A program made the translations under genes and the position numbers. Below are positions 3,200 through 56,939 of a stretch of 64,000 nucleotides of DNA, piece after piece (position 1 is the stretch's first letter; each line of letters starts with the position of its first letter). Under the pieces are notes generated by a model. That model saw only the letters and a program-made list of their open reading frames with translations. It was not told the origin of the DNA and did not search any database. Origin of the DNA: Escherichia phage HP3; sequence record NC_041919.1; one strand, 5' to 3'.

Positions 3200-3607
3200 A
3201 TGAAACAGTTGATAATTAAAAGATTGAATTTATTGATATGTTGTTTATGTGTAGTAGTTGCATATGGTTATTACGCAATTAATGATTATATGCATTATAA
3301 AGATTATGATGTTACTGTAGTTAATACCTTTACAGGAACTCAAGGAAAGGGGTCTAGTTTATCGTTTATTGCTGTATATGAACTCAAAGACGGTTATAGA
3401 TTTAGCGAATATATTTCACCAGAGATGTATTCATCAATAGAAAAAGGCGATAATATTACTGTAAGTTTACGTCCTTTCGACGTAAAACAGACATTGTTTG
3501 ATAATATTGTTTGGTTCTTTGGAATGGTATTAGTTCAATCTGTGTGTGGTGCTTATATAGTCTGTTCCATCTTATTCTGTATATTTAGTAAAATTGAAAT
3601 TGAGTGA
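3200..3607 (+). CDS. hypothetical membrane protein (135 aa)
   Basis: ORF with hydrophobic N- and C-terminal segments. Confidence 0.5.
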   Translation: MKQLIIKRLNLLICCLCVVVAYGYYAINDYMHYKDYDVTVVNTFTGTQGKGSSLSFIAVYELKDGYRFSEYISPEMYSSIEKGDNITVSLRPFDVKQTLFDNIVWFFGMVLVQSVCGAYIVCSILFCIFSKIEIE

Positions 3608-5590: not shown

Positions 5591-6592
5591 ATGACTCGTA
5601 ACGAATATATCAAATCATTCAATAGCGTTATTGATGATAAAGTTAAACCTGTGTTTAGTCAGAATAGTGTTATTTCCATTATCAATCAATGGCTCAATAA
5701 TATTGATGCAAGTATTGTTTCTTCAAGCAAATTTATTCATGAAGTTCATAAAATTTCTAGTCGCGAATATAAAGATGATATTAAGGAAACTTTTAAAGGT
5801 TCTCGTCTTCTTTCATATTTAGTTAATCAAGATATTCTTGGTAAATTTGGGAAAGAAATTAAACGAACTAAAGATGTAGTAGGATACAGTTGGTTCGGTG
5901 ATGTTAATTCTTATCATCTTAATAATAAAGAAGACCCTGAGAATATTTTTACTCGTCGTTGGATTAGTAATTTTAGACTTTTCAAGAAGCAAATTCTAAA
6001 ATCAGCTTCTAAATTATGCTATGGTGATTATCGTCAAATCCATCCTTGGGCTTCTGATATGATTATCATAAAAGAATATGAGCTTGATAAAAATAAAGCA
6101 GCTATTTTTGTGAATTATGAATTTTTTACACCAGAAGCTAATCAAAAGAACATTAATAAATTTTTCTCAATTGCTAGCGATATAACTCGTCAGTTAGAGA
6201 CCGCATTACTTTGTATGGAAACAGTAGAAAATATTCATACTTATCCTTTTAAGAATATATGCGGTTGGGAAGGATATAAAATTGTAGTTAGTCTCCGTGA
6301 AGTAAAGTGTGCGTACTCACCGACTGATAAAGAAATTTACCAACAAAAATGTGATGAAATTGTGAATACTCCTAAAGAAGAAACTACCCTTGAGGAACTA
6401 ATGGAATGTCTTGACGATTCGCCTGAACCAGTAGAAATTCGTCCAGAAGTTATTGCACTAGAAAAAGCTTATAAAGAAGTTCTAGAAATTTCTAATAAAG
6501 CGCAGAAAGAATATGAGCAGGCTAAAAAGATTTGGGAAGAATCCGTTAATCGTCTTGATCGTCTTGAACAAGCTTTACAGTTAATTAAGTAA
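5591..6592 (+). CDS. hypothetical protein, paralog family (333 aa)
   Basis: ATG 5591 after GAGGAGATTAAT; track ORF 5540 start lies inside the promoter. Confidence 0.6.
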   Translation: MTRNEYIKSFNSVIDDKVKPVFSQNSVISIINQWLNNIDASIVSSSKFIHEVHKISSREYKDDIKETFKGSRLLSYLVNQDILGKFGKEIKRTKDVVGYSWFGDVNSYHLNNKEDPENIFTRRWISNFRLFKKQILKSASKLCYGDYRQIHPWASDMIIIKEYELDKNKAAIFVNYEFFTPEANQKNINKFFSIASDITRQLETALLCMETVENIHTYPFKNICGWEGYKIVVSLREVKCAYSPTDKEIYQQKCDEIVNTPKEETTLEELMECLDDSPEPVEIRPEVIALEKAYKEVLEISNKAQKEYEQAKKIWEESVNRLDRLEQALQLIK

Positions 6593-25375: not shown

Positions 25376-28072
25376 ATGAAAGAATTTTATATCTCTATTG
25401 AAACAGTCGGAAATAACATTGTTGAACGTTATATTGATGAAAACGGAAAGGAACGTACTCGTGAAGTAGAATATCTTCCGACTATGTTTAGGCATTGTAA
25501 GGAAGAGTCAAAATACAAAGACATCTATGGTAAAAACTGCGCTCCTCAAAAATTTCCATCAATGAAAGATGCTCGAGATTGGATGAAACGAATGGAAGAC
25601 ATCGGTCTCGAAGCTCTCGGTATGAACGATTTTAAACTCGCTTATATCAGTGATACATATGGTTCAGAAATTGTTTATGACCGAAAATTTGTTCGTGTAG
25701 CTAACTGTGACATTGAGGTTACTGGTGATAAATTTCCTGACCCAATGAAAGCAGAATATGAAATTGATGCTATTACTCATTATGATTCAATTGATGATCG
25801 TTTTTATGTTTTCGACCTTTTGAATTCAATGTACGGTTCAGTATCAAAATGGGATGCAAAGTTAGCTGCTAAGCTTGACTGTGAAGGTGGTGATGAAGTT
25901 CCTCAAGAAATTCTTGACCGAGTAATTTATATGCCATTCGATAATGAGCGTGATATGCTCATGGAATATATCAATCTCTGGGAACAGAAACGACCTGCTA
26001 TTTTTACTGGTTGGAATATTGAGGGATTTGACGTTCCGTATATCATGAATCGTGTTAAAATGGTTCTCGGTGAACGTAGTATGAAACGCTTCTCTCCAAT
26101 CGGTCGAGTAAAATCTAAACTAATTCAAAATATGTACGGTAGCAAAGAAATTTATTCTATTGATGGCGTATCTATTCTTGATTATTTAGATTTGTACAAG
26201 AAATTCGCTTTTACTAATTTGCCGTCATTCTCTTTGGAATCAGTTGCTCAACATGAAACCAAAAAAGGTAAATTACCGTATGATGGTCCTATTAATAAAC
26301 TTCGTGAGACTAATCATCAACGATACATTAGTTATAACATCATTGACGTAGAATCAGTTCAAGCAATTGATAAAATTCGCGGGTTTATCGATCTAGTTTT
26401 AAGTATGTCTTATTATGCTAAAATGCCTTTTTCTGGTGTAATGAGTCCTATTAAAACTTGGGATGCTATTATTTTTAACTCATTGAAAGGTGAACATAAG
26501 GTTATTCCTCAACAAGGTTCGCATGTTAAACAGAGTTTTCCGGGTGCATTTGTGTTTGAACCTAAACCAATTGCTCGTCGATATATTATGAGTTTTGACT
26601 TGACGTCTCTGTATCCGAGCATTATTCGTCAGGTTAACATTAGTCCTGAGACTATTCGTGGACAATTTAAAGTTCATCCAATTCATGAATATATCGCAGG
26701 AACAGCTCCTAAGCCAAGTGAAGAATATTCTTGTTCTCCGAATGGATGGATGTATGATAAGCATCAAGAAGGTATCATTCCAAAGGAAATCGCTAAAGTA
26801 TTTTTCCAGCGTAAAGACTGGAAAAAGAAAATGTTCGCTGAAGAAATGAATGCCGAAGCTATTAAAAAGATTATTATGAAAGGCGCAGGGTCTTGTTCAA
26901 CTAAACCAGAAGTTGAACGATATGTTAAGTTCAGTGATGATTTCTTAAATGAACTGTCGAATTATACTGAATCTGTTCTCAATAGTTTGATTGAAGAATG
27001 TGAAAAAGCTGCTACACTTGCTAACACAAATCAGCTGAACCGTAAAATTCTCATTAACAGTCTTTATGGTGCTCTTGGTAATATTCATTTCCGTTACTAT
27101 GATTTGCGAAATGCTACTGCTATCACAATTTTTGGCCAAGTTGGTATTCAGTGGATTGCTCGTAAAATTAATGAATATCTGAATAAAGTATGCGGAACTA
27201 ATGGCGAAGATTTCATTGCAGCAGGTGATACTGATTCGGTATATGTTTGTGTAGATAAAGTTATTGAAAAAGTTGGTCTTGACCGATTCAAAGAGCAGAA
27301 CGATTTGGTTGAATTTATGAATCAGTTCGGTAAGAAAAAGATGGAACCTATGATTGATGTTGCATATCGTGAGTTATGTGATTATATGAATAACCGCGAG
27401 CATCTGATGCATATGGACCGTGAAGCTATTTCTTGCCCTCCACTTGGTTCAAAGGGTATTGGTGGATTTTGGAAAGCGAAAAAGCGTTATGCTCTGAACG
27501 TTTATGATATGGAAGATAAACGATTTGCTGAACCGCATCTAAAAATCATGGGTATGGAAACTCAGCAGAGTTCAACACCAAAAGCAGTACAAGAAGCTCT
27601 CGAAGAAAGTATTCGTCGTATTCTTCAGGAAGGTGAAGAGTCTGTCCAAGAATATTACAAGAACTTCGAGAAAGAATATCGTCAACTCGACTATAAAGTT
27701 ATTGCTGAAGTAAAAACTGCGAACGATATAGCGAAATATGATGATAAAGGTTGGCCAGGATTTAAATGTCCGTTCCATATTCGTGGTGTGCTAACTTATC
27801 GTCGAGCTGTTAGCGGTTTAGGTGTAGCTCCAATTTTGGATGGAAATAAAGTAATGGTTCTTCCATTGCGTGAAGGAAATCCATTTGGTGACAAATGCAT
27901 TGCTTGGCCGTCGGGTACAGAACTTCCAAAAGAAATTCGTTCTGACGTACTGTCTTGGATTGACTACTCAACTTTGTTCCAAAAATCGTTTGTTAAACCG
28001 CTTGCGGGCATGTGTGAATCGGCTGGTATGGACTATGAAGAAAAAGCTTCGTTAGACTTCCTGTTTGGCTGA
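25376..28072 (+). CDS. 43: DNA polymerase gp43 (family B)
   Basis: 898 aa; exonuclease and polymerase motifs (DIE, YGDTDS). Confidence 0.97.
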   Translation: MKEFYISIETVGNNIVERYIDENGKERTREVEYLPTMFRHCKEESKYKDIYGKNCAPQKFPSMKDARDWMKRMEDIGLEALGMNDFKLAYISDTYGSEIVYDRKFVRVANCDIEVTGDKFPDPMKAEYEIDAITHYDSIDDRFYVFDLLNSMYGSVSKWDAKLAAKLDCEGGDEVPQEILDRVIYMPFDNERDMLMEYINLWEQKRPAIFTGWNIEGFDVPYIMNRVKMVLGERSMKRFSPIGRVKSKLIQNMYGSKEIYSIDGVSILDYLDLYKKFAFTNLPSFSLESVAQHETKKGKLPYDGPINKLRETNHQRYISYNIIDVESVQAIDKIRGFIDLVLSMSYYAKMPFSGVMSPIKTWDAIIFNSLKGEHKVIPQQGSHVKQSFPGAFVFEPKPIARRYIMSFDLTSLYPSIIRQVNISPETIRGQFKVHPIHEYIAGTAPKPSEEYSCSPNGWMYDKHQEGIIPKEIAKVFFQRKDWKKKMFAEEMNAEAIKKIIMKGAGSCSTKPEVERYVKFSDDFLNELSNYTESVLNSLIEECEKAATLANTNQLNRKILINSLYGALGNIHFRYYDLRNATAITIFGQVGIQWIARKINEYLNKVCGTNGEDFIAAGDTDSVYVCVDKVIEKVGLDRFKEQNDLVEFMNQFGKKKMEPMIDVAYRELCDYMNNREHLMHMDREAISCPPLGSKGIGGFWKAKKRYALNVYDMEDKRFAEPHLKIMGMETQQSSTPKAVQEALEESIRRILQEGEESVQEYYKNFEKEYRQLDYKVIAEVKTANDIAKYDDKGWPGFKCPFHIRGVLTYRRAVSGLGVAPILDGNKVMVLPLREGNPFGDKCIAWPSGTELPKEIRSDVLSWIDYSTLFQKSFVKPLAGMCESAGMDYEEKASLDFLFG

Positions 28073-28085
28073 TAGAATAAATCTA

Positions 28086-28106
28086 GGGACCTCCGGGTCC
28101 CTTTTT
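28086..28106 (+). terminator. rho-independent terminator (GGGACC-TCCG-GGTCCC + T5)
   Basis: hairpin plus T-run after gene 43. Confidence 0.7.
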
Positions 28107-28188: not shown

Positions 28189-28218
28189 GTTTACATCTCT
28201 GTTCTTCCATGGTACTAT
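28189..28218 (+). promoter_or_regulatory. T4-type early promoter
   Basis: GTTTAC 28189-28194, TACTAT 28213-28218, A/T-rich upstream tract. Confidence 0.7.
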
Positions 28219-28258
28219 ACAACTATCAACTACTGATACGGATTTGGAGAATAAAATG
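28211..28258 (+). repeat. conserved leader cassette (copy 2 of 3)
   Basis: same as 1142-1186 with a 3-nt insertion; ends in ATG of the downstream ORF. Confidence 0.85.
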
Positions 28259-28492
28259 AAAATTGTTATGGGTTGCTTAGCAGTTTGTTTAGTTGCATTA
28301 GCAGCAGTTCCATTTGTTAGTGTTGAAAATGATACTCAACCTGTGATTGAATCTAGCACTGTTATTCACACTAATGGTAAAATATCAGTTAAAATTGATG
28401 ATAATCTTCATGTGAATACAAATGGATCTTTAGGTGTGCAAATGGGTAATACCTGCATAAGCACTACTGGAGTAATTACTACTTGTATTTGA
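28256..28492 (+). CDS. hypothetical secreted/membrane protein (78 aa)
   Basis: ATG 28256; N-terminal signal-like segment MKIVMGCLAVCLVALAAVPF. Confidence 0.5.
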   Translation: MKIVMGCLAVCLVALAAVPFVSVENDTQPVIESSTVIHTNGKISVKIDDNLHVNTNGSLGVQMGNTCISTTGVITTCI

Positions 28493-28502
28493 GGAAATTA
28501 TT

Positions 28503-28883
28503 ATGAAAATCGCTATTTTGGTTATTGCATTAGGTCTTACTGGTTGTGTAGCTCAAGGACCGGTAGTAAATCAGTCTGATGTAGGAAAAATTGTAAACTG
28601 TTCAAGCAAATTTTATAATCCTAATGTCAAGTGTTATAAAGAAGCTCCAAAACAGACAGTAGAACAAATGCAGGCGAATTTTGACGAGGCTATTCGTCCA
28701 GATGAATCTGCTCAAGCATATCGTAATTCGGATGTAATTACACGCGAAGAAAAAATTGAAAACTACTGCGCCGAGCTTTGGGCTAATTGGGCCAATAATT
28801 ACCAATGGCGTACTGGTAAAAATGCTCCGATGGAGTATGTAGTGAATTCTTATAATTCATGTGTAAAAAATTTGACTAAGTGA
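28503..28883 (+). CDS. putative lipoprotein (126 aa)
   Basis: signal peptide with lipobox LTGC; Cys-containing mature part. Confidence 0.55.
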   Translation: MKIAILVIALGLTGCVAQGPVVNQSDVGKIVNCSSKFYNPNVKCYKEAPKQTVEQMQANFDEAIRPDESAQAYRNSDVITREEKIENYCAELWANWANNYQWRTGKNAPMEYVVNSYNSCVKNLTK

Positions 28884-28890
28884 GGAAAAT

Positions 28891-29142
28891 ATGGAAACTT
28901 TAGTAACAGGTTCAATTTTTATGGTTTTAGTTTCAGGTGTGTTGGCTATTATTATATACATGCTTCCATGGTTTATCGCCTTGATGCGTGGGTCAAAATC
29001 GACAGTAGGAATCTTTTTCACATCTTTACTGTTTAACTGGTCAATTATTGGTTGGTTTATTACATTTATTTGGTCAATTGCGGGTGAAACTAAAAAGTCT
29101 GCACAGCCAAATCAAGTAATTATCATCAGAGAGAAGGAATGA
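28891..29142 (+). CDS. imm: immunity to superinfection membrane protein
   Basis: 83 aa, two hydrophobic segments; size and position between 43 and 42 fit T4 imm. Confidence 0.65.
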   Translation: METLVTGSIFMVLVSGVLAIIIYMLPWFIALMRGSKSTVGIFFTSLLFNWSIIGWFITFIWSIAGETKKSAQPNQVIIIREKE

Positions 29143-29288
29143 AAAGCAAAATTATAGCAGTGTTGCTTTTAATCTTGATGATTATAATAAGTATATACTA
29201 TAGTGTAACGGTTCCTCTTATGATTCCAACTATTATTTTAGGTTGGAGTTTATTACTGTTACAAGTTAAATATGAATGTATCAATTGA
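29139..29288 (+). CDS. hypothetical small membrane protein (49 aa)
   Basis: ATG 29139 overlapping imm stop (ATGA); strongly hydrophobic. Confidence 0.3.
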   Translation: MKSKIIAVLLLILMIIISIYYSVTVPLMIPTIILGWSLLLLQVKYECIN

Positions 29289-29295
29289 GGTTTAA

Positions 29296-30036
29296 ATGAT
29301 TAGTGACTCTATGACAGTTGAAGAAATCCGTCTTCATTTGGGGCTTGCATTAAAAGAAAAAGATTTCGTAGTTGATAAAACTGGTGTTAAAACTATTGAA
29401 ATTATTGGCGCATCATTTGTAGCAGATGAACCGTTTATTTTTGGCGCTCTTAATGATGAATACATTCAGCGTGAACTTGAATGGTATAAATCTAAGAGTT
29501 TGTTTGTTAAAGATATTCCAGGTGAAACACCAAAGATTTGGCAGCAGGTAGCATCTTCTAAAGGCGAAATTAACTCGAATTATGGTTGGGCTATTTGGTC
29601 AGAAGATAACTATGCCCAGTATGATATGTGTTTAGCTGAACTTGGTCAAAATCCTGATTCTCGACGTGGTATCATGATTTATACTCGTCCATCTATGCAG
29701 TTTGACTACAATAAAGATGGTATGTCAGATTTCATGTGTACTAATACAGTACAGTACTTGATTCGTGATAAGAAAGTCAATGCGGTAGTAAGCATGCGCT
29801 CAAATGACGTGGTCTTCGGATTCCGTAATGATTATGCATGGCAAAAATACGTATTAGATAAATTAGTATCTGATTTGAATGCAGGCGATTCAACTCGTCA
29901 GTATAAAGCAGGTTCTATTATATGGAATGTTGGAAGTCTTCATGTATATTCTCGTCATTTTTATTTGGTTGATCATTGGTGGAATACTGGCGAAACTCAT
30001 ATTGTGAAAAAAGACTATAAAGGTGAGTGGAAATGA
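29296..30036 (+). CDS. 42: dCMP hydroxymethylase gp42
   Basis: 246 aa; thymidylate-synthase-like fold sequence matching remembered T4 gp42. Confidence 0.95.
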   Translation: MISDSMTVEEIRLHLGLALKEKDFVVDKTGVKTIEIIGASFVADEPFIFGALNDEYIQRELEWYKSKSLFVKDIPGETPKIWQQVASSKGEINSNYGWAIWSEDNYAQYDMCLAELGQNPDSRRGIMIYTRPSMQFDYNKDGMSDFMCTNTVQYLIRDKKVNAVVSMRSNDVVFGFRNDYAWQKYVLDKLVSDLNAGDSTRQYKAGSIIWNVGSLHVYSRHFYLVDHWWNTGETHIVKKDYKGEWK

Positions 30037-30875
30037 TTCAATTCGTAATTCCAAGTTATCAACGTGTCGGGGCAGTTTCTGCCCTTAATATGTTTCCGAC
30101 TGATTATGAACCCCATATTGTGGTGCGTGAACACGAAGAAAAAGCTTATTATGATGCTTATGGGTCTAGAGCTAAAATTGTAACTATTCCTGATGATGTT
30201 AATGGAATTGCCGGTACTCGTAAAGCAATTACTGATATGTATGCAGGTCAACGAATCTGGATGATTGATGATGATACTACTATTCGTATGAGTTCAATAC
30301 GAAAGAGAGACGATAAACGGCGTGTAGATAAAATTAATCAATTAACTCGTGAACAGTTCTATGAATTAATTCAATACGTTGAAGATGCCATGGATTGCGG
30401 GTATTATCACGGTCATGCTCGTCTACCAATTTTTAAAATTACTTCATCTTGGGGCAATTATCGTGAAAACTCATATGGATTCACGAATACATGGTATGAC
30501 CTCGGAAAACTTACGACAGAACAAATTGGGTATGGAAAAATTGATTTATGCGAAGATATGTATGCATTTCTCAATTTAATTAATCAAGGTTATCCGCATT
30601 TGGCCTTGTTCAAATATCTAGTTGTATCTGGAAAATCACACGCTCCCGGTGGGTGTAGTTCAATTCGTAGTAATTCTAAACATAATAGAGCGCTTGAGCA
30701 AATCAATAGAGAGTTTCCAGAGCAAGCTCGTTGGAAAACATCGAATATTGAAAAACGAAAATCGTTGGGTGAAGAAGACGAGCCATTAAAGGTTCTTCGC
30801 ATGTGTGTTTCGCGTAAAGAAAAATCAGAAGCATTTCATAAGTTTAATGCTATTCATCCAATAGCAGTTGATTAA
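30033..30875 (+). CDS. glycosyltransferase at the beta-gt locus (candidate beta-glucosyl-HMC-alpha-glucosyltransferase)
   Basis: 280 aa from ATG 30033 (ATGA overlap with gene 42); DxD-like WMIDDDTT motif; unrelated to remembered T4 beta-gt sequence (351 aa). Confidence 0.65.
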   Translation: MIQFVIPSYQRVGAVSALNMFPTDYEPHIVVREHEEKAYYDAYGSRAKIVTIPDDVNGIAGTRKAITDMYAGQRIWMIDDDTTIRMSSIRKRDDKRRVDKINQLTREQFYELIQYVEDAMDCGYYHGHARLPIFKITSSWGNYRENSYGFTNTWYDLGKLTTEQIGYGKIDLCEDMYAFLNLINQGYPHLALFKYLVVSGKSHAPGGCSSIRSNSKHNRALEQINREFPEQARWKTSNIEKRKSLGEEDEPLKVLRMCVSRKEKSEAFHKFNAIHPIAVD

Positions 30876-34468: not shown

Positions 34469-34762
34469 ATGAAAAAATTTATCTTTGCTGCAATTTTTGC
34501 TTTATCTTCTTGCGCTGCTCAGCCTGCTATGGCGGGTTATGACAAAGATTTGTGCGAATGGTCTATGACTGCGGATCAGACTGAAGTTGAAACTCAAATT
34601 GAAGCAGATATTATGAATATCGTTGAACGTGATCGTCCTGAAATGAAAGCTGAAGTGCAAAAACAGCTTAAGTCTGGTGGTGTAATGCAGTATAATTATG
34701 TTCTGTATTGCGATAAAAACTTTAATAATAAAAATATCATCGCTGAAGTGGTAGGTGAATAA
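34469..34762 (+). CDS. sp: spackle-like periplasmic protein
   Basis: 97 aa with signal peptide MKKFIFAAIFALSSCAAQPAMA; size and position fit T4 sp. Confidence 0.65.
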   Translation: MKKFIFAAIFALSSCAAQPAMAGYDKDLCEWSMTADQTEVETQIEADIMNIVERDRPEMKAEVQKQLKSGGVMQYNYVLYCDKNFNNKNIIAEVVGE

Positions 34763-49622: not shown

Positions 49623-49883
49623 ATGAAATATATTAATCGTTCTATCGCAGCATTAGTATTAGCAGTGTCTTTAATAGGATGTACTGATGCTGATAATGCA
49701 ACCAAAGTTTTGTCTTCAAGTGGTTTTACTAATATTGAAATCACTGGATATAATTGGTTCGGTTGCTCTGAAAATGATTTCCAGCATACTGGATTTCGTG
49801 CTATTGGACCTACTGGGCAGAAAGTAGAAGGAACAGTATGTTCTGGACTATTCTTCAAGGATTCGACTATTCGTTTTAAATAA
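49623..49883 (+). CDS. putative lipoprotein (86 aa)
   Basis: ATG 49623; signal peptide with lipobox LIGC. Confidence 0.5.
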   Translation: MKYINRSIAALVLAVSLIGCTDADNATKVLSSSGFTNIEITGYNWFGCSENDFQHTGFRAIGPTGQKVEGTVCSGLFFKDSTIRFK

Positions 49884-49925: not shown

Positions 49926-49952
49926 ATTCCCGAAACCAAACGAGGATAAGTG

Positions 49953-51770
49953 ATGATTAAGAATGAAATTAAAATTCTGAGCGATATTGAACATATCAAA
50001 AAGCGTAGCGGCATGTATATTGGCTCTTCTGCTAATGAAATGCATGAGCGCTTTCTGTTTGGTAAATGGGAAAGTGTTCAGTATGTACCTGGTCTTGTTA
50101 AGCTTATTGATGAAATTATCGATAACTCAGTAGATGAAGGTATTCGTACTAAGTTTAAATTCGCAAATAAAATTAATGTTACTATTAAAAACAATCAAGT
50201 AACAGTTGAAGATAACGGTCGCGGTATTCCACAAGCGATGGTCAAAACACCTACCGGTGAAGAAATTCCTGGTCCTGTTGCTGCATGGACTATTCCAAAA
50301 GCAGGTGGTAACTTTGGTGATGATAAAGAACGTGTCACCGGTGGTATGAATGGTGTTGGTTCTAGTTTGACAAACATTTTTTCTGTGATGTTTGTCGGTG
50401 AAACTGGTGATGGTCAAAATAATATTGTAGTTCGTTGTTCAAATGGCATGGAAAATAAATCATGGGAAGATATTCCTGGAAAATGGAAAGGAACTCGTGT
50501 TACTTTCATTCCTGATTTTATGTCATTTGAAACTAATGAGCTGTCTCAGGTTTATCTTGACATTACACTGGACCGTCTCCAGACACTCGCAGTAGTTTAT
50601 CCTGATATTCAATTTACCTTTAATGGTAAAAAGGTTCAGGGCAATTTTAAGAAATATGCACGCCAATATGATGAGCATGCTATTGTTCAAGAACAAGAAA
50701 ATTGTTCTATTGCGGTTGGTCGTTCACCGGATGGTTTTCGTCAATTAACATACGTTAATAACATTCATACTAAGAATGGTGGCCATCACATTGACTGTGT
50801 TATGGATGATATTTGTGAAGACCTTATTCCACAAATCAAACGTAAGTTCAAAATTGATGTGACTAAAGCACGCGTTAAAGAATGTTTGACTATCGTTATG
50901 TTTGTCCGTGATATGAAAAACATGCGATTTGATTCTCAAACTAAAGAGCGTTTGACTTCTCCATTTGGTGAAATCCGTAGTCATATTCAACTTGATGCTA
51001 AAAAGATTTCACGTGCTATTCTAAATAATGAAGCAATTCTAATGCCGATTATTGAAGCTGCTTTGGCTCGTAAATTGGCGGCAGAAAAAGCAGCAGAAAC
51101 TAAAGCAGCTAAAAAGGCTTCTAAAGCTAAGGTTCATAAACATATCAAAGCGAATCTTTGTGGTAAAGATGCTGACACTACTCTTTTCTTGACTGAGGGT
51201 GATTCGGCTATCGGATATCTTATTGATGTTCGTGATAAAGAACTTCATGGTGGTTATCCATTGCGCGGTAAAGTTCTCAACAGTTGGGGTATGTCATATG
51301 CTGATATGCTTAAAAACAAAGAATTGTTTGATATTTGCGCAATCACTGGATTAGTTCTCGGTGAAAAAGCTGAAAACTTGAATTATCATAATATCGCTAT
51401 TATGACTGATGCTGACCATGATGGTCTAGGAAGCATTTATCCTTCTCTGCTCGGGTTTTTTAGTAATTGGCCAGAACTGTTTGAGCAAGGAAGAATTCGT
51501 TTTGTCAAAACTCCTGTAATCATCGCTCAGGTCGGTAAAAAACAAGAATGGTTTTATACAGTCGCTGAATATGAGAGTGCTAAAGATGCTCTACCTAAAC
51601 ATAGCATCCGTTATATTAAAGGACTTGGCTCTTTGGAAAAATCTGAATATCGTGAGATGATTCAAAATCCAGTATATGATGTTGTTAAACTTCCTGAGAA
51701 CTGGAAAGAGCTTTTTGAAATGCTCATGGGAGATAATGCTGACCTTCGTAAAGAATGGATGAGCCAGTAG
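49953..51770 (+). CDS. 39: DNA topoisomerase II large subunit gp39 (GyrB-like), unsplit
   Basis: 605 aa from ATG 49953; GHKL ATPase and Toprim (EGDSA) motifs in one frame. Confidence 0.95.
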   Translation: MIKNEIKILSDIEHIKKRSGMYIGSSANEMHERFLFGKWESVQYVPGLVKLIDEIIDNSVDEGIRTKFKFANKINVTIKNNQVTVEDNGRGIPQAMVKTPTGEEIPGPVAAWTIPKAGGNFGDDKERVTGGMNGVGSSLTNIFSVMFVGETGDGQNNIVVRCSNGMENKSWEDIPGKWKGTRVTFIPDFMSFETNELSQVYLDITLDRLQTLAVVYPDIQFTFNGKKVQGNFKKYARQYDEHAIVQEQENCSIAVGRSPDGFRQLTYVNNIHTKNGGHHIDCVMDDICEDLIPQIKRKFKIDVTKARVKECLTIVMFVRDMKNMRFDSQTKERLTSPFGEIRSHIQLDAKKISRAILNNEAILMPIIEAALARKLAAEKAAETKAAKKASKAKVHKHIKANLCGKDADTTLFLTEGDSAIGYLIDVRDKELHGGYPLRGKVLNSWGMSYADMLKNKELFDICAITGLVLGEKAENLNYHNIAIMTDADHDGLGSIYPSLLGFFSNWPELFEQGRIRFVKTPVIIAQVGKKQEWFYTVAEYESAKDALPKHSIRYIKGLGSLEKSEYREMIQNPVYDVVKLPENWKELFEMLMGDNADLRKEWMSQ

Positions 51771-56377: not shown

Positions 56378-56562
56378 GTTCATTATGGTGGTGTTTTGTT
56401 TGGTTAATTAGTATTCCAGTAATTTGTTTAACATTTACTTTTGTGATGAGGTTATTATGAAAATTTTGAATTCTGTACTTATTGCTTGTGCGTGGTGGGT
56501 TGCACAGGTTTCAGCGGTAGTAGTTGGTATTCACATTTATTACGAATATTTTTAAAAAAGTT

Positions 56563-56592
56563 GTTTACAAGACTGTTCTTCCGTGGTACTAT
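56563..56592 (+). promoter_or_regulatory. T4-type early promoter within stem-loop cassette
   Basis: GTTTAC 56563-56568, TACTAT 56587-56592; TGTTCTTCC (56574-56582) / GGAGGAACA (56608-56616). Confidence 0.65.
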
Positions 56593-56620
56593 TACCCTAT
56601 CAACTACGGAGGAACAGAAA

Positions 56621-56734
56621 ATGAAAAAGATTATTAAAGCTATATGGAATGTAGTTATAATACTAATAGTTTTGAGTATATTCCCAATCGTTTTAATGAT
56701 TGATGTATTAAACGTTTACTTTGGATTTATGTGA
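56621..56734 (+). CDS. hypothetical small membrane peptide (37 aa)
   Basis: ATG 56621 after GGAGGAAC; hydrophobic. Confidence 0.35.
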   Translation: MKKIIKAIWNVVIILIVLSIFPIVLMIDVLNVYFGFM

Positions 56735-56741
56735 GGAAAAT

Positions 56742-56939
56742 ATGAAACGTAAACGCAATGCTTTTACATTTATTGAATGGTTTTTCGATAATATTTTTCC
56801 GGCTTTATTCATTTTCATGCTGATTTTTGCCTTAGGTTCAGTTGTAGTTGGAATCTATTTGATGACAGTAGTCGGAATTGATATTCATCAAAATGGTTTA
56901 AAATCCGTAGTTGAAACAATTTGGAATGGTGTAAAATGA
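56742..56939 (+). CDS. hypothetical membrane protein (65 aa)
   Basis: ATG 56742 after GAGGAAAATATG. Confidence 0.45.
   Translation: MKRKRNAFTFIEWFFDNIFPALFIFMLIFALGSVVVGIYLMTVVGIDIHQNGLKSVVETIWNGVK

What the first reader, a model, noticed from the sequence alone, without database searches (positions are those of the whole stretch)
28256..29288. Cluster of secreted, lipoprotein and membrane ORFs between genes 43 and 42
Four adjacent small ORFs: a signal-peptide protein (28256-28492), a lipobox lipoprotein (28503-28883, LTGC), imm (28891-29142) and a 49-aa hydrophobic peptide (29139-29288). With imm known to block superinfecting DNA entry, the neighbours are candidate additional envelope-acting exclusion factors. 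A second lipoprotein lies at 49623-49883.
Basis: partly seen in the sequence, partly recalled or inferred. Interest (0 to 1): 0.4.

Follow-up and report, generated by a model that had tools for sequence, protein, structure and literature searches.

The report
T-even imm.1–imm envelope gene cluster
These four small genes between the DNA polymerase and dCMP hydroxymethylase genes of a T4-like phage are already catalogued envelope proteins (an accessory secreted protein, the Imm.1 lipoprotein, the Imm exclusion protein and the tiny membrane peptide gp42.1); only Imm has a proven role, and only Imm.1 shows gene-order evidence of working with it.

Summary
The window is Escherichia phage HP3.1, a Tequatrovirus (100% identity). 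The four ORFs sit at the stated coordinates, packed behind one early-type promoter.

- ORF1 (28256-28492) belongs to phrog_4189. It is an accessory exported protein found in about 60% of Tequatroviruses and absent from T4.
- ORF2 (28503-28883) is Imm.1 (Pfam DUF5481, phrog_1754).
- ORF3 (28891-29142) is Imm.
- ORF4 (29139-29288) is gp42.1. It is present but unannotated in both the T4 RefSeq record and the HP3.1 record.

A run of four consecutive envelope-targeted genes is unlikely by chance (about 0.03 expected in this window). All four ORFs evolve under purifying selection.

The Imm.1 lipobox is kept in 11 of 12 lineages sampled. Imm.1 lies beside imm in most genera, and in RB69-like phages the pair moved together to sit next to spackle. 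However, Imm.1-like genes persist in Karamvirus and Winklervirus with no imm in the interval. Imm homologues occur alone in unrelated phages, and published work shows Imm works alone from a plasmid. A published T4 knock-down screen scored imm.1 as having no fitness effect. ORF1 is a variable insert. gp42.1 keeps its genome position rather than following imm.

Nothing here is structurally new. Imm.1 as a third exclusion factor remains an untested hypothesis.

The parts
28085..28102 (+). Terminator-like hairpin plus T-run directly after the gene 43 stop codon
   Evidence: Consensus scan found a 7-bp stem with 5 G-C pairs, followed by TTTTT. The sequence is conserved in T4.
28190..28218 (+). Early-type sigma-70 promoter-like site (TTTACA, 17-nt spacer, TACTAT, with TG extension) upstream of ORF1
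   Evidence: Consensus scan. The same sequence lies upstream of imm.1 in T4. T4 imm.1 is classed as early RNA and early protein (PMC9697503 supplements). This is a consensus match only, with no mapping data for this phage.
28256..28492 (+). ORF1, 78 aa, HP31_0154, phrog_4189: accessory exported protein (Sec signal peptide or signal anchor, then a beta-rich domain of about 60 aa)
   Evidence: - ORF confirmed; phrog_4189 at 4e-30 and no Pfam hit.
- Found in 324 phage records, nearly all named for hosts of Tequatrovirus-type phages.
- Absent from T4 through a 247-bp indel bounded by ATGAAAAT.
- pN/pS of 0.36-0.47 in comparisons with diverged relatives.
- Variants carry in-frame 7-aa duplications in the hydrophobic core.
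- AF2 model is low confidence (pLDDT 53.8): helix 4-16 plus six short strands.
28503..28883 (+). imm.1, 126 aa: predicted outer-membrane lipoprotein (lipobox L12-T-G-C15, Val at +2)
   Evidence: - Pfam DUF5481 at 239 bits; phrog_1754 at 5e-44.
- 99% identical to T4 Imm.1.
- Lipobox Cys kept in 11 of 12 lineages; C89 and C120 invariant.
- pN/pS 0-0.07.
- Detected as an early protein in T4.
- Knock-down scored 'Not Fit' in T4.
28891..29142 (+). imm, 83 aa: inner-membrane superinfection immunity protein
   Evidence: Pfam PF14373 at 58.1 bits; phrog_1039. It carries R33 and W50, the residues whose mutation weakened exclusion in the T4 study (residues counted from the translation). Its Shine-Dalgarno sequence GAGG overlaps the imm.1 stop codon.
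29139..29288 (+). gp42.1, 49 aa: two-segment hydrophobic inner-membrane micro-protein, translationally coupled to imm by an ATGA overlap
   Evidence: - phrog_3610 at 9.5e-26.
- Annotated as gp42.1 in RB14 and RB51.
- Present with one amino-acid difference, but unannotated, in T4 NC_000866 and unannotated in the HP3.1 record.
- Found in 746 phage records, including Mosigvirus and Winklervirus at 45-60% identity.
- pN/pS of 0.17-0.45 in the more diverged comparisons.
29296..30036 (+). Gene 42 (dCMP hydroxymethylase): downstream context. Its Shine-Dalgarno sequence overlaps the 42.1 stop codon, so it lies in the same transcription unit.
   Evidence: Pfam Thymidylat_synt; near-identical to T4 gp42.
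49623..49883 (+). The 'second lipoprotein': a gp39.1 homologue, 86 aa, with lipobox L-I-G-C, upstream of gene 39. It is not part of the cluster.
   Evidence: ORF confirmed; phrog_902 at 1.4e-36; 1069 phage records across many genera, named 39.1 in CC31, RB43 and PEi26. T4's own 39.1 is a 65-aa form lacking the signal peptide.

Best explanation
This is the standard T-even 'envelope cassette' in the gene 43 to gene 42 interval of a Tequatrovirus (phage HP3.1).

Expression. One early promoter, just after the gene 43 terminator, drives a tightly packed, translationally coupled string: ORF1, imm.1, imm, 42.1, 42 and the glucosyltransferase gene.

Predicted locations.
- ORF1 is exported to the periplasm by a Sec signal peptide or signal anchor.
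- Imm.1 is lipidated at Cys15. Because it has no Asp at +2, the Lol pathway should send it to the inner face of the outer membrane. Its mature part is disulfide-bonded.
- Imm inserts in the inner membrane.
- gp42.1 is a two-segment inner-membrane micro-protein.

Functions. Imm is the only established exclusion factor. It binds the tape-measure protein gp29 of a superinfecting phage and blocks DNA translocation. Imm.1 is a conserved, non-essential early lipoprotein of Tevenvirinae. It most likely acts on the envelope in the same anti-superinfection or envelope-protection context as Imm and Spackle, as an accessory and not as an obligate Imm subunit. ORF1 is an independent accessory insert in a variable slot. 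gp42.1 is a position-conserved membrane peptide with no demonstrated tie to Imm.

Shown versus inferred. Shown here or in the cited papers: the gene identities, the conservation, the gene-order patterns, early expression and the dispensability of imm.1. Inferred: lipidation, outer-membrane sorting, disulfides and any exclusion role for Imm.1.
For: Identity.
- 100% DNA identity to HP3.1.
- Pfam and PHROG assignments.
- T4 and RB14 annotations.

Operon layout.
- Terminator and promoter consensus sites.
- Gaps of 7-10 nt and an ATGA overlap read directly from the sequence.

Real genes.
- Purifying selection in all four ORFs: pN/pS 0-0.07 for imm.1, 0.04-0.2 for imm, 0.36-0.47 for ORF1 and 0.17-0.45 for 42.1 in the more diverged comparisons.

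Imm.1 as a lipoprotein.
- Across 12 lineages from 8 named genera plus metagenomes, the invariant positions are M1, K2, the lipobox Gly, Y38 and two Cys. The lipobox Cys is kept in 11 of 12.
- The one exception has a clean A-H-A|S signal-peptidase I site instead, so export is still preserved.
- By my reading of the sequences, the mature part always has an even number of Cys and the +2 residue is never Asp.

Linkage of imm.1 to imm.
- Adjacent in Tequatrovirus, three metagenomic lineages, Gelderlandvirus, Moonvirus and Jiaodavirus.
- The pair relocated together beside sp in Mosigvirus.
- PHROG places the 147-aa neighbours of imm in the same family as Imm.1, with full-length matches.

Expression and dispensability.
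- Early RNA and early protein in T4.
- 'Not Fit' in the CRISPRi-ART screen.

Imm mechanism.
- Preprint 10.64898/2026.03.06.709160.
Against: - There is no experimental evidence for any function of Imm.1, ORF1 or gp42.1. I found no paper that addresses them.
- Imm.1-like genes exist with no imm in the interval in Karamvirus and Winklervirus.
- Imm homologues are widespread without any Imm.1, including in mycobacteriophages.
- Imm alone suffices for exclusion from a plasmid.
- Structure prediction gave only low-confidence models (pLDDT 55.7 and 53.8) and no fold match, so no mechanism can be read from structure.
- Lipidation rests on pattern rules that also match Spackle.
Confidence: 0.6

Rival explanations
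1. One reading: ORF1, Imm.1 and gp42.1 are each additional superinfection-exclusion factors acting on the envelope alongside Imm.
For: - All four are envelope-targeted and share one early transcription unit.
- The cluster is non-random, with about 0.03 such runs expected.
- imm.1 and imm move together in Mosigvirus.
- gp42.1 is translationally coupled to imm in five lineages.
- An unrelated Acinetobacter phage also has a tiny hydrophobic ORF overlapping the end of its imm homologue.
Against: - ORF1 is missing from about 40% of Tequatroviruses, including T4 and RB14, whose exclusion is the classical reference.
- In Mosigvirus and Winklervirus gp42.1 stays beside the arabinose-modification genes, away from imm. 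It is absent where imm abuts gene 42.
- From my own knowledge of T4 genetics, exclusion is attributed to imm and sp only.
Confidence: 0.1
2. Imm.1 is an Imm-independent outer-membrane lipoprotein with its own envelope job. It might mask or alter a conserved outer-membrane or peptidoglycan component, as T5 Llp does for FhuA, so as to stop adsorption or protect progeny from debris. Alternatively it might stabilise the envelope during infection. Its position next to imm would then be historical.
For: - The family is retained in Karamvirus and Winklervirus with no imm in the interval.
- In Dhakavirus and Gaprivervirus it is separated from imm by 42.1.
- It is predicted to be outer-membrane-sorted, whereas Imm is in the inner membrane.
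- It is early-expressed and dispensable in the laboratory, like Llp.
- T5 Llp is a precedent for a lytic-phage lipoprotein used in exclusion (PMC9586334, listed).
Against: - Imm.1 is at least 95% identical across about 500 Tequatrovirus records from phages of Escherichia, Shigella, Yersinia, Salmonella and Citrobacter. From my own knowledge these phages use different receptors, so a receptor-specific blocker is unlikely.
- It has no Pfam or PADLOC match to any known exclusion lipoprotein.
- The joint relocation of imm.1 and imm in Mosigvirus is hard to explain if the two are unrelated.
Confidence: 0.22
3. The clustering has no functional meaning. The 43-42 interval is simply a tolerant slot where small membrane-protein genes of unrelated or no function accumulate.
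For: - The slot upstream of imm.1 is variable: empty in T4, RB14 and two metagenomic lineages, ORF1 in HP3.1, a Frd3-like gene in L018, and a rearranged fragment in CT01.
- ORF1 and gp42.1 evolve faster than their neighbours.
- T4-like genomes hold other runs of tiny membrane ORFs, such as 56457-56939.
Against: - Imm.1 is under very strong purifying selection: 15 of 16 differences are at third codon positions in the most diverged Tequatrovirus pair.
- The family spans at least 8 genera with its lipobox intact, which rules out a functionless gene.
- gp42.1 keeps an invariant P-x-M-I-P-T core, Trp and C-terminal Cys across genera.
Confidence: 0.08

Closest known systems
T4 Imm.1 (NP_049661, UniProt P18057; Pfam DUF5481 / PF17578; phrog_1754)
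   Same: ORF2 is this protein. It is 99% identical to the T4 copy, sits in the same position upstream of imm, and has the same lipobox (L-A-G-C in T4, L-T-G-C here).
   Different: One residue longer at the C-terminus because of a 1-nt indel. The RefSeq product name 'iduronate sulfatase' has no support: no sulfatase domain was found and the protein is only 126 aa.
T4 Imm (Pfam Imm_superinfect, PF14373)
   Same: ORF3 is Imm. It is 83 aa and carries R33 and W50. Its mechanism is taken from the T4 study, in which Imm binds the tape-measure protein gp29.
   Different: The 94-aa extended reading frame used for cryo-EM in T4 does not exist here. The upstream ATG at 28859 is in another frame and meets a stop codon after six codons.
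gp42.1 of RB14, RB51 and VR26 (phrog_3610)
   Same: ORF4 is this micro-protein. It is 86% identical to the RB14 copy, has the same ATGA overlap with imm, and has the same conserved P-x-M-I-P-T...W...C-x-N core.
   Different: It is not annotated in the HP3.1 GenBank record or in T4 NC_000866, although the ORF is intact in both.
T5 Llp, the outer-membrane lipoprotein used for superinfection exclusion by a lytic phage
   Same: Like Llp, Imm.1 is a small, early, dispensable predicted outer-membrane lipoprotein of a virulent coliphage. This is the nearest functional precedent for what Imm.1 might do (PMC9586334, listed).
   Different: No sequence or family relationship was detected. Imm.1 is not next to a receptor-binding protein gene. 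It is nearly invariant among phages that, from my own knowledge, use different receptors. No exclusion phenotype is known.
T4 Spackle (Sp, gp61.3), the periplasmic inhibitor of the gp5 tail lysozyme
   Same: Spackle is a small, early, exported protein with a known role in exclusion. In Mosigvirus the order is imm.1, imm, sp, so all three are contiguous. The window's own sp lies at 34469-34762.
   Different: No detectable homology to Imm.1 or ORF1. From my own knowledge of the literature, Spackle is soluble in the periplasm, whereas Imm.1 is predicted to be lipid-anchored.

Membership tests
Bacterial lipoprotein (signal peptidase II substrate), for ORF2 / Imm.1 | A positively charged N-terminal region, then a short hydrophobic core, then a lipobox [LVI][ASTVI][GAS]C within about the first 25 residues | tested here: met
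   The sequence starts M-K, then IAILVIALG, then L-T-G-C15, and a PROSITE-style pattern matches. Across 12 lineages the lipobox Leu and Cys are each kept in 11 of 12 and the Gly in 12 of 12.
Bacterial lipoprotein (signal peptidase II substrate), for ORF2 / Imm.1 | Residue +2 decides sorting: Asp means inner-membrane retention, anything else means Lol transport to the outer membrane | tested here: met
   The +2 residue is Val here and A, G, S, Q or V in relatives, never Asp (my reading). The sorting rule itself comes from established E. coli knowledge, not from a test here.
Bacterial lipoprotein (signal peptidase II substrate), for ORF2 / Imm.1 | Actual acylation and globomycin-sensitive processing | not testable with these tools
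   This needs palmitate labelling or globomycin treatment and a C15A mutant. Note that Spackle also matches the pattern.
Pfam DUF5481 (PF17578) / phrog_1754 | HMM score above the curated cut-off | tested here: met
   239.2 bits against a cut-off of 27, covering profile positions 1-103. phrog_1754 matches at 5e-44 over the full length.
Imm_superinfect (PF14373), for ORF3 | HMM score above the cut-off, and the functionally tested residues R33 and W50 | tested here: met
   58.1 bits against a cut-off of 27.9. R33 and W50 are present in the translation, and their role comes from the T4 preprint.
Sec-type cleavable signal peptide, for ORF1 | N-terminal Lys or Arg, a hydrophobic core, and small residues at -3 and -1 of a cleavage site | tested here: inconclusive
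   K2, a core from I3 to V13 and A14-L15-A16|A17 fit the rule. However, the hydrophobic stretch continues to V23, and variants carry 7-aa duplications that lengthen it. An uncleaved signal anchor is therefore equally possible. No dedicated predictor was available.
Known phage exclusion lipoproteins (T5 Llp, Cor, Ltp) and catalogued defence proteins | Sequence-family membership | tested here: not met
   Pfam returned only DUF5481 above its cut-off. PADLOC gave one sub-threshold chance match (RT_UG34, E = 0.004). Foldseek against the PDB found nothing at E below 3, though the model was of low confidence.
Known phage exclusion lipoproteins (T5 Llp, Cor, Ltp) and catalogued defence proteins | An exclusion phenotype when expressed | not testable with these tools
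   No published test was found. The CRISPRi-ART screen shows only that imm.1 is dispensable for growth.
Sulfatase (the RefSeq product name 'iduronate sulfatase' for Imm.1) | A sulfatase catalytic domain | tested here: not met
   No sulfatase family appears in Pfam or NCBIfam at E up to 0.1, and the protein is only 126 aa. The name is an annotation artefact.
gp42.1 (phrog_3610), for ORF4 | HMM match and the conserved core motif | tested here: met
   phrog_3610 matches at 9.5e-26 over 47 of 47 profile positions. P26, M28, I29, P30, T31, W36, Q42, C47 and N49 are invariant across six sequences from three genera.

The most novel reading that the evidence does not exclude
Imm.1-family lipoproteins are a third, outer-membrane-tethered component of T-even superinfection exclusion. 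The lipid-anchored protein would use its conserved N-terminal segment ((I/V)V-x-x-S-x-VG(K/Q)) and its disulfide-stapled helical domain to reach across the periplasm. There it would engage the incoming tail-tip complex or the periplasmic N-terminus of Imm, positioning or reinforcing the Imm block on the tape-measure protein. gp42.1, co-translated with Imm, could be a further stoichiometric membrane partner.
Probability: 0.25. Interest if true: 0.55.

Novelty: already known. Interest (0 to 1): 0.27.

Why it matters
T4 superinfection exclusion is a textbook system credited to two genes, imm and sp, and the Imm mechanism has only just been described. If the lipoprotein conserved beside imm contributed, the model would gain an outer-membrane component, and about 900 T4-like genomes would gain a functional annotation for a gene now labelled hypothetical or, wrongly, 'iduronate sulfatase'.

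As it stands, the practical value is in annotation:
- gp42.1 is missing from the T4 reference record and from the HP3.1 record.
- Imm.1 should be described as a predicted lipoprotein.
- ORF1 is an accessory gene in a variable slot.

The experiments needed are simple and cheap.

Tried and rejected
- Structure route. The AlphaFold2 model of Imm.1 (4-sequence alignment) had mean pLDDT 55.7, with only the C-terminal helices near 78. The model of ORF1 (13 sequences) had pLDDT 53.8. A Foldseek search of the PDB with the Imm.1 model gave nothing at E below 3. No function can be read from fold.
- Deep homology for Imm.1. A profile search of 1.84 billion representative proteins found only 6 hits, all phage. 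The scan of bacterial genomes found only one 514-bp contig, which I read as contamination. There is no cellular homologue to borrow a function from.
- Direct profile-profile comparison. hhalign of T4-type Imm.1 against the 147-aa lipoproteins of Melville, Moon and KP1079 aligned only the first 30 columns (probability 94%), which could reflect signal-peptide similarity. I accepted homology only after PHROG HMMs matched both groups over their full length.
- Defence and annotation libraries. PADLOC and NCBIfam gave only sub-threshold chance hits.
- Independent support for a 'lipoprotein plus Imm' pair. I looked in unrelated phages (Obolenskvirus and N4-like Moo19). Neither has an adjacent lipoprotein.
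- Literature. No paper in the library treats imm.1, DUF5481 or gp42.1 functionally. The T4 genome review (PMC150520) is not held.
- Rejected readings. ORF1 as a lipoprotein: its V-M-G-C at Cys7 has too short a preceding core, and L-A-V-C has a forbidden -1 residue. The UniRef name 'Lipoprotein' for variant P0019 fits an L-A-A-C created by a 7-aa duplication. Imm.1 as a sulfatase was also rejected.
Full report
**What the window is.** The 1,223 bases between gene 43 and gene 42 are 100% identical to Escherichia phage HP3.1 (OK275722.1, Tequatrovirus). They are 95-99% identical to more than 400 other T4-like records. On the + strand the layout is:
- gene 43: 25376-28072
- ORF1: 28256-28492
- ORF2: 28503-28883
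- ORF3: 28891-29142
- ORF4: 29139-29288
- gene 42: 29296-30036
- a beta-glucosyl-HMC-alpha-glucosyltransferase homologue: 30027-30875
- uvsX

**Observation check.**
- ORF1 starts MKIVMGCLAVCLVALAAVPFVSVEND.
- ORF2 starts MKIAILVIALGLTGC, which contains a canonical lipobox.
- ORF3 is Imm (PF14373, 58 bits).
- ORF4 is a 49-residue peptide with two hydrophobic segments.

I scored the 117 CDS of the window (annotated CDS wholly inside it, plus gp42.1 added by me) with a Kyte-Doolittle 19-residue window at a threshold of 1.6. Fifteen have a hydrophobic segment, and this is the only run of four. About 0.03 such runs would be expected by chance.

The genes are packed like an operon.
- A hairpin plus T-run follows gene 43 at 28085-28102.
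- An early-type promoter consensus (TTTACA, 17 nt, TACTAT, with TG) lies at 28190-28218.
- Intergenic gaps are 10, 7 and 7 nt, and imm and ORF4 overlap by ATGA.
- Shine-Dalgarno sequences (GAGG) overlap the preceding stop codons.

**Coding evidence.** Against diverged relatives, differences fall mainly at third codon positions.
- imm.1: pN/pS 0-0.07, with 15 of 16 changes at the third position against phage JoYop
- imm: 0.04-0.2
- ORF1: 0.36-0.47 in the diverged comparisons
- ORF4: 0.17-0.45 in the more diverged comparisons
- gene 42: 0.04-0.14, for comparison

All four are real genes. ORF1 and ORF4 are less constrained than the other two.

**ORF2 is Imm.1.** It matches Pfam DUF5481 at 239 bits and phrog_1754, and it is 99% identical to T4 Imm.1.

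The family is narrow. A profile search of 1.84 billion representative proteins returned only six proteins, all from phage contigs. A scan of bacterial genomes found only one 514-bp contig, which I read as contamination.

In the phage collection, tblastn found the T4 type in 655 records. About 500 are Tequatrovirus at 95% identity or more, and 155 are Mosigvirus at about 33%, with nothing in between.

PHROG HMMs also place other lipoproteins in phrog_1754 with full-length matches: the roughly 147-aa proteins that sit beside imm in Gelderlandvirus (Melville), Moonvirus (Moon) and Jiaodavirus (KP1079). tblastn with those proteins adds 112 and 148 records. These include Karamvirus at about 34% identity and a partial Dhakavirus match at about 33%. 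The Gaprivervirus (VR26) and Winklervirus (CBH8) members were recognised by position, lipobox and shared motifs.

A 12-lineage alignment has these invariant positions: M1, K2, the lipobox Gly, Y38 and two Cys (C89 and C120). The lipobox Leu and Cys are each kept in 11 of 12. The single exception, P0005, replaces the Cys with Phe but has a clean A-H-A|S signal-peptidase I site, so export is still preserved.

By my reading of the sequences, the +2 residue is never Asp and the mature part always has an even number of Cys. Under the established E. coli sorting and disulfide rules, this fits a protein anchored in the outer membrane, facing the periplasm and disulfide-bonded.

The AF2 model is of low confidence (pLDDT 55.7). 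Residues 1-49 are unstructured and there are helices at 53-63, 68-74, 81-104 and 110-125. It has no match in the PDB.

Published T4 data show two things. Imm.1 is classed as early RNA and early protein (PMC9697503 supplements). Knock-down has no fitness effect in the laboratory: CRISPRi-ART scored it 'Not Fit' at -0.77 (PMC11879866 supplement). In the same screen imm scored 'Fit' at 1.40. I suspect that reflects polarity on the essential gene 42, but this is my inference.

**Linkage of imm.1 to imm.**

For a functional link:
- imm.1 is immediately upstream of imm in Tequatrovirus, in three separate metagenomic lineages (L018, L021, L023), and in Gelderlandvirus, Moonvirus and Jiaodavirus.
- In Mosigvirus (JS09 and an IMG/VR contig) the pair has left the 43-42 interval together. 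It sits as 61.4, imm.1, imm, sp, 61.2, directly beside the other known exclusion gene.

Against an obligate partnership:
- In Dhakavirus and Gaprivervirus the order is imm, 42.1, then the Imm.1-like gene.
- Karamvirus (CC31, KaAlpha) and Winklervirus (CBH8, Gravdalen) keep the lipoprotein right after gene 43 but have no imm in the interval.
- Few Enterobacter phages appear among Imm hits, even with a closer query.
- Imm homologues occur alone in Obolenskvirus, in N4-like Moo19 and in hundreds of other phages, including mycobacteriophages.
- Imm alone excludes T4 from a plasmid and binds the tape-measure protein gp29 directly (preprint 10.64898/2026.03.06.709160).

**ORF1.** It belongs to phrog_4189 and has no Pfam, NCBIfam or PADLOC match. 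It occurs in 324 phage records (295 full length), against about 500 Tequatrovirus records that carry imm.1.

T4 and RB14 lack it. The T4 junction is a 247-bp indel bounded by the 8-bp repeat ATGAAAAT, which is the start of both ORF1 and imm.1. As a result, T4 imm.1 uses the promoter and ribosome-binding site that serve ORF1 here.

The same slot is used differently elsewhere. It holds a Frd3-like cytoplasmic gene in L018. It is empty in L021 and L023. In phage CT01 it holds an ORF1 fragment flanked by a duplicated imm.1 5' end.

Variants carry in-frame 7-residue duplications in the hydrophobic core, and Cys69 is not invariant. The A-L-A|A site fits a cleavable signal peptide, but the long hydrophobic stretch is also compatible with a signal anchor. 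The mature part is predicted, at low confidence, to be a small beta meander.

Nothing ties ORF1 specifically to imm.

**ORF4 is gp42.1.** This is the name used in RB14, RB51 and VR26. It matches phrog_3610.

It is intact in T4 with one amino-acid difference, yet it is not annotated in NC_000866 or in the HP3.1 record.

It is found in 746 records. These include Mosigvirus and Winklervirus at 45-60% identity, with an invariant P-x-M-I-P-T core, Trp36, Gln42 and C-x-N at the C-terminus.

In Mosigvirus and Winklervirus it sits after gene 43 and an arabinose-5-phosphate isomerase gene, again with an ATGA overlap. It lies ahead of the arabinosyl-modification genes, while imm is elsewhere or absent. 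It is missing in the lineages where imm directly abuts gene 42. It therefore follows the locus and not imm.

One curiosity remains. An unrelated Acinetobacter phage has a non-homologous 37-aa hydrophobic ORF overlapping the end of its imm homologue.

**Second lipoprotein.** The ORF at 49623-49883 is a gp39.1 homologue with lipobox L-I-G-C. It belongs to phrog_902 and is present in 1069 records across many genera. T4's own 39.1 is a 65-aa form without the signal peptide. It is unrelated to the cluster.

**Conclusion.** The finding describes a real, non-random cluster, but one that is already catalogued. Imm is the only member with an established mechanism.

The best reading is a co-expressed early envelope cassette with four parts:
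- Imm.1 is a conserved, dispensable, predicted outer-membrane lipoprotein. Gene order links it to imm and sp in many lineages but not all, so it is probably an accessory envelope-defence factor.
- Imm is the established exclusion protein.
- ORF1 is an independent accessory insert.
- gp42.1 is a position-conserved micro-protein.

The exclusion role proposed for the neighbours remains a reasonable hypothesis for Imm.1 only, and simple experiments would test it.

Noticed in passing
window 29139-29288; L001 (T4 NC_000866) 6228-6377, minus strand: The 49-aa gp42.1 ORF is intact in T4 (one amino-acid difference) and in HP3.1, but it is not annotated in either record. RB14, RB51 and VR26 do annotate it.
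   Followed up: yes
window 28503-28883; T4 T4p046: RefSeq names T4 Imm.1 and several orthologues 'iduronate sulfatase', and other records call it 'Phage immunity'. No sulfatase domain is detectable and the protein is only 126 aa, so the name is an annotation artefact.
   Followed up: yes
window 28859-28891, compared with L001 6374-6658: T4 has a 94-aa extended Imm reading frame (MCKKFDLSEEN-METL...), which was used for the published cryo-EM construct. In HP3.1 a 1-nt difference near the imm.1 stop codon puts that upstream ATG out of frame, and it stops after six codons. The extension is therefore not conserved, and the 83-aa start is the shared one.
   Followed up: partly
window 49623-49883; L031 (T4) 3399-3596: The gp39.1 homologue here is 86 aa with a lipobox (SLIGC) and is conserved in 1069 phage records. 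T4's own 39.1 is a 65-aa form that lacks the whole signal peptide.
   Followed up: partly
window 34469-34762: Spackle (MKKFIFAAIFALSSCAAQPAMAGYD...) matches the same lipobox pattern (L-S-S-C) used to call lipoproteins. From my own knowledge it is regarded as a soluble periplasmic protein. This is a caution about rule-based lipoprotein calls.
   Followed up: no
window 56457-56939: A second run of three consecutive tiny hydrophobic ORFs (32, 37 and 65 aa) lies on the + strand downstream of rIIB/denB and just upstream of ndd, i.e. among the small ndd.x ORFs. Their function is unknown.
   Followed up: no
L009 (Shigella phage CT01) 1209-2046: An ORF1 fragment is flanked by a duplicated copy of the imm.1 leader and its first 33 or so codons. 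This produces two chimeric annotated ORFs and points to illegitimate recombination at this slot.
   Followed up: partly
Alignment A9 (ORF1 variants P0013, P0019, P0020): The hydrophobic core of ORF1 varies by in-frame tandem duplications of a 7-residue unit (CLVALAA). In P0019 the duplication creates an L-A-A-C lipobox-like site, which fits that cluster's UniRef name 'Lipoprotein'.
   Followed up: partly
L035 (Acinetobacter phage WCHABP12) 1228-1550: An Imm homologue in an unrelated temperate-type phage is followed by a 37-aa hydrophobic ORF that overlaps its stop codon. It is positionally analogous to gp42.1 but not detectably homologous.
   Followed up: no
window 49950-51770: Gene 39 (topoisomerase II large subunit) is a single 606-aa ORF here, unlike the split 39 + 60 arrangement with the mobA insert in T4.
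   Followed up: no
HP3.1 record OK275722.1, across the whole window: Many product names in the deposited annotation look like propagated errors. Examples are a dozen consecutive 'Thioredoxin, phage-associated' CDS in the region upstream of nrdD, 'Molybdenum ABC transporter ... ModA' for small ORFs downstream of modA/modB, and gene 42 labelled 'hypothetical protein'.
   Followed up: no
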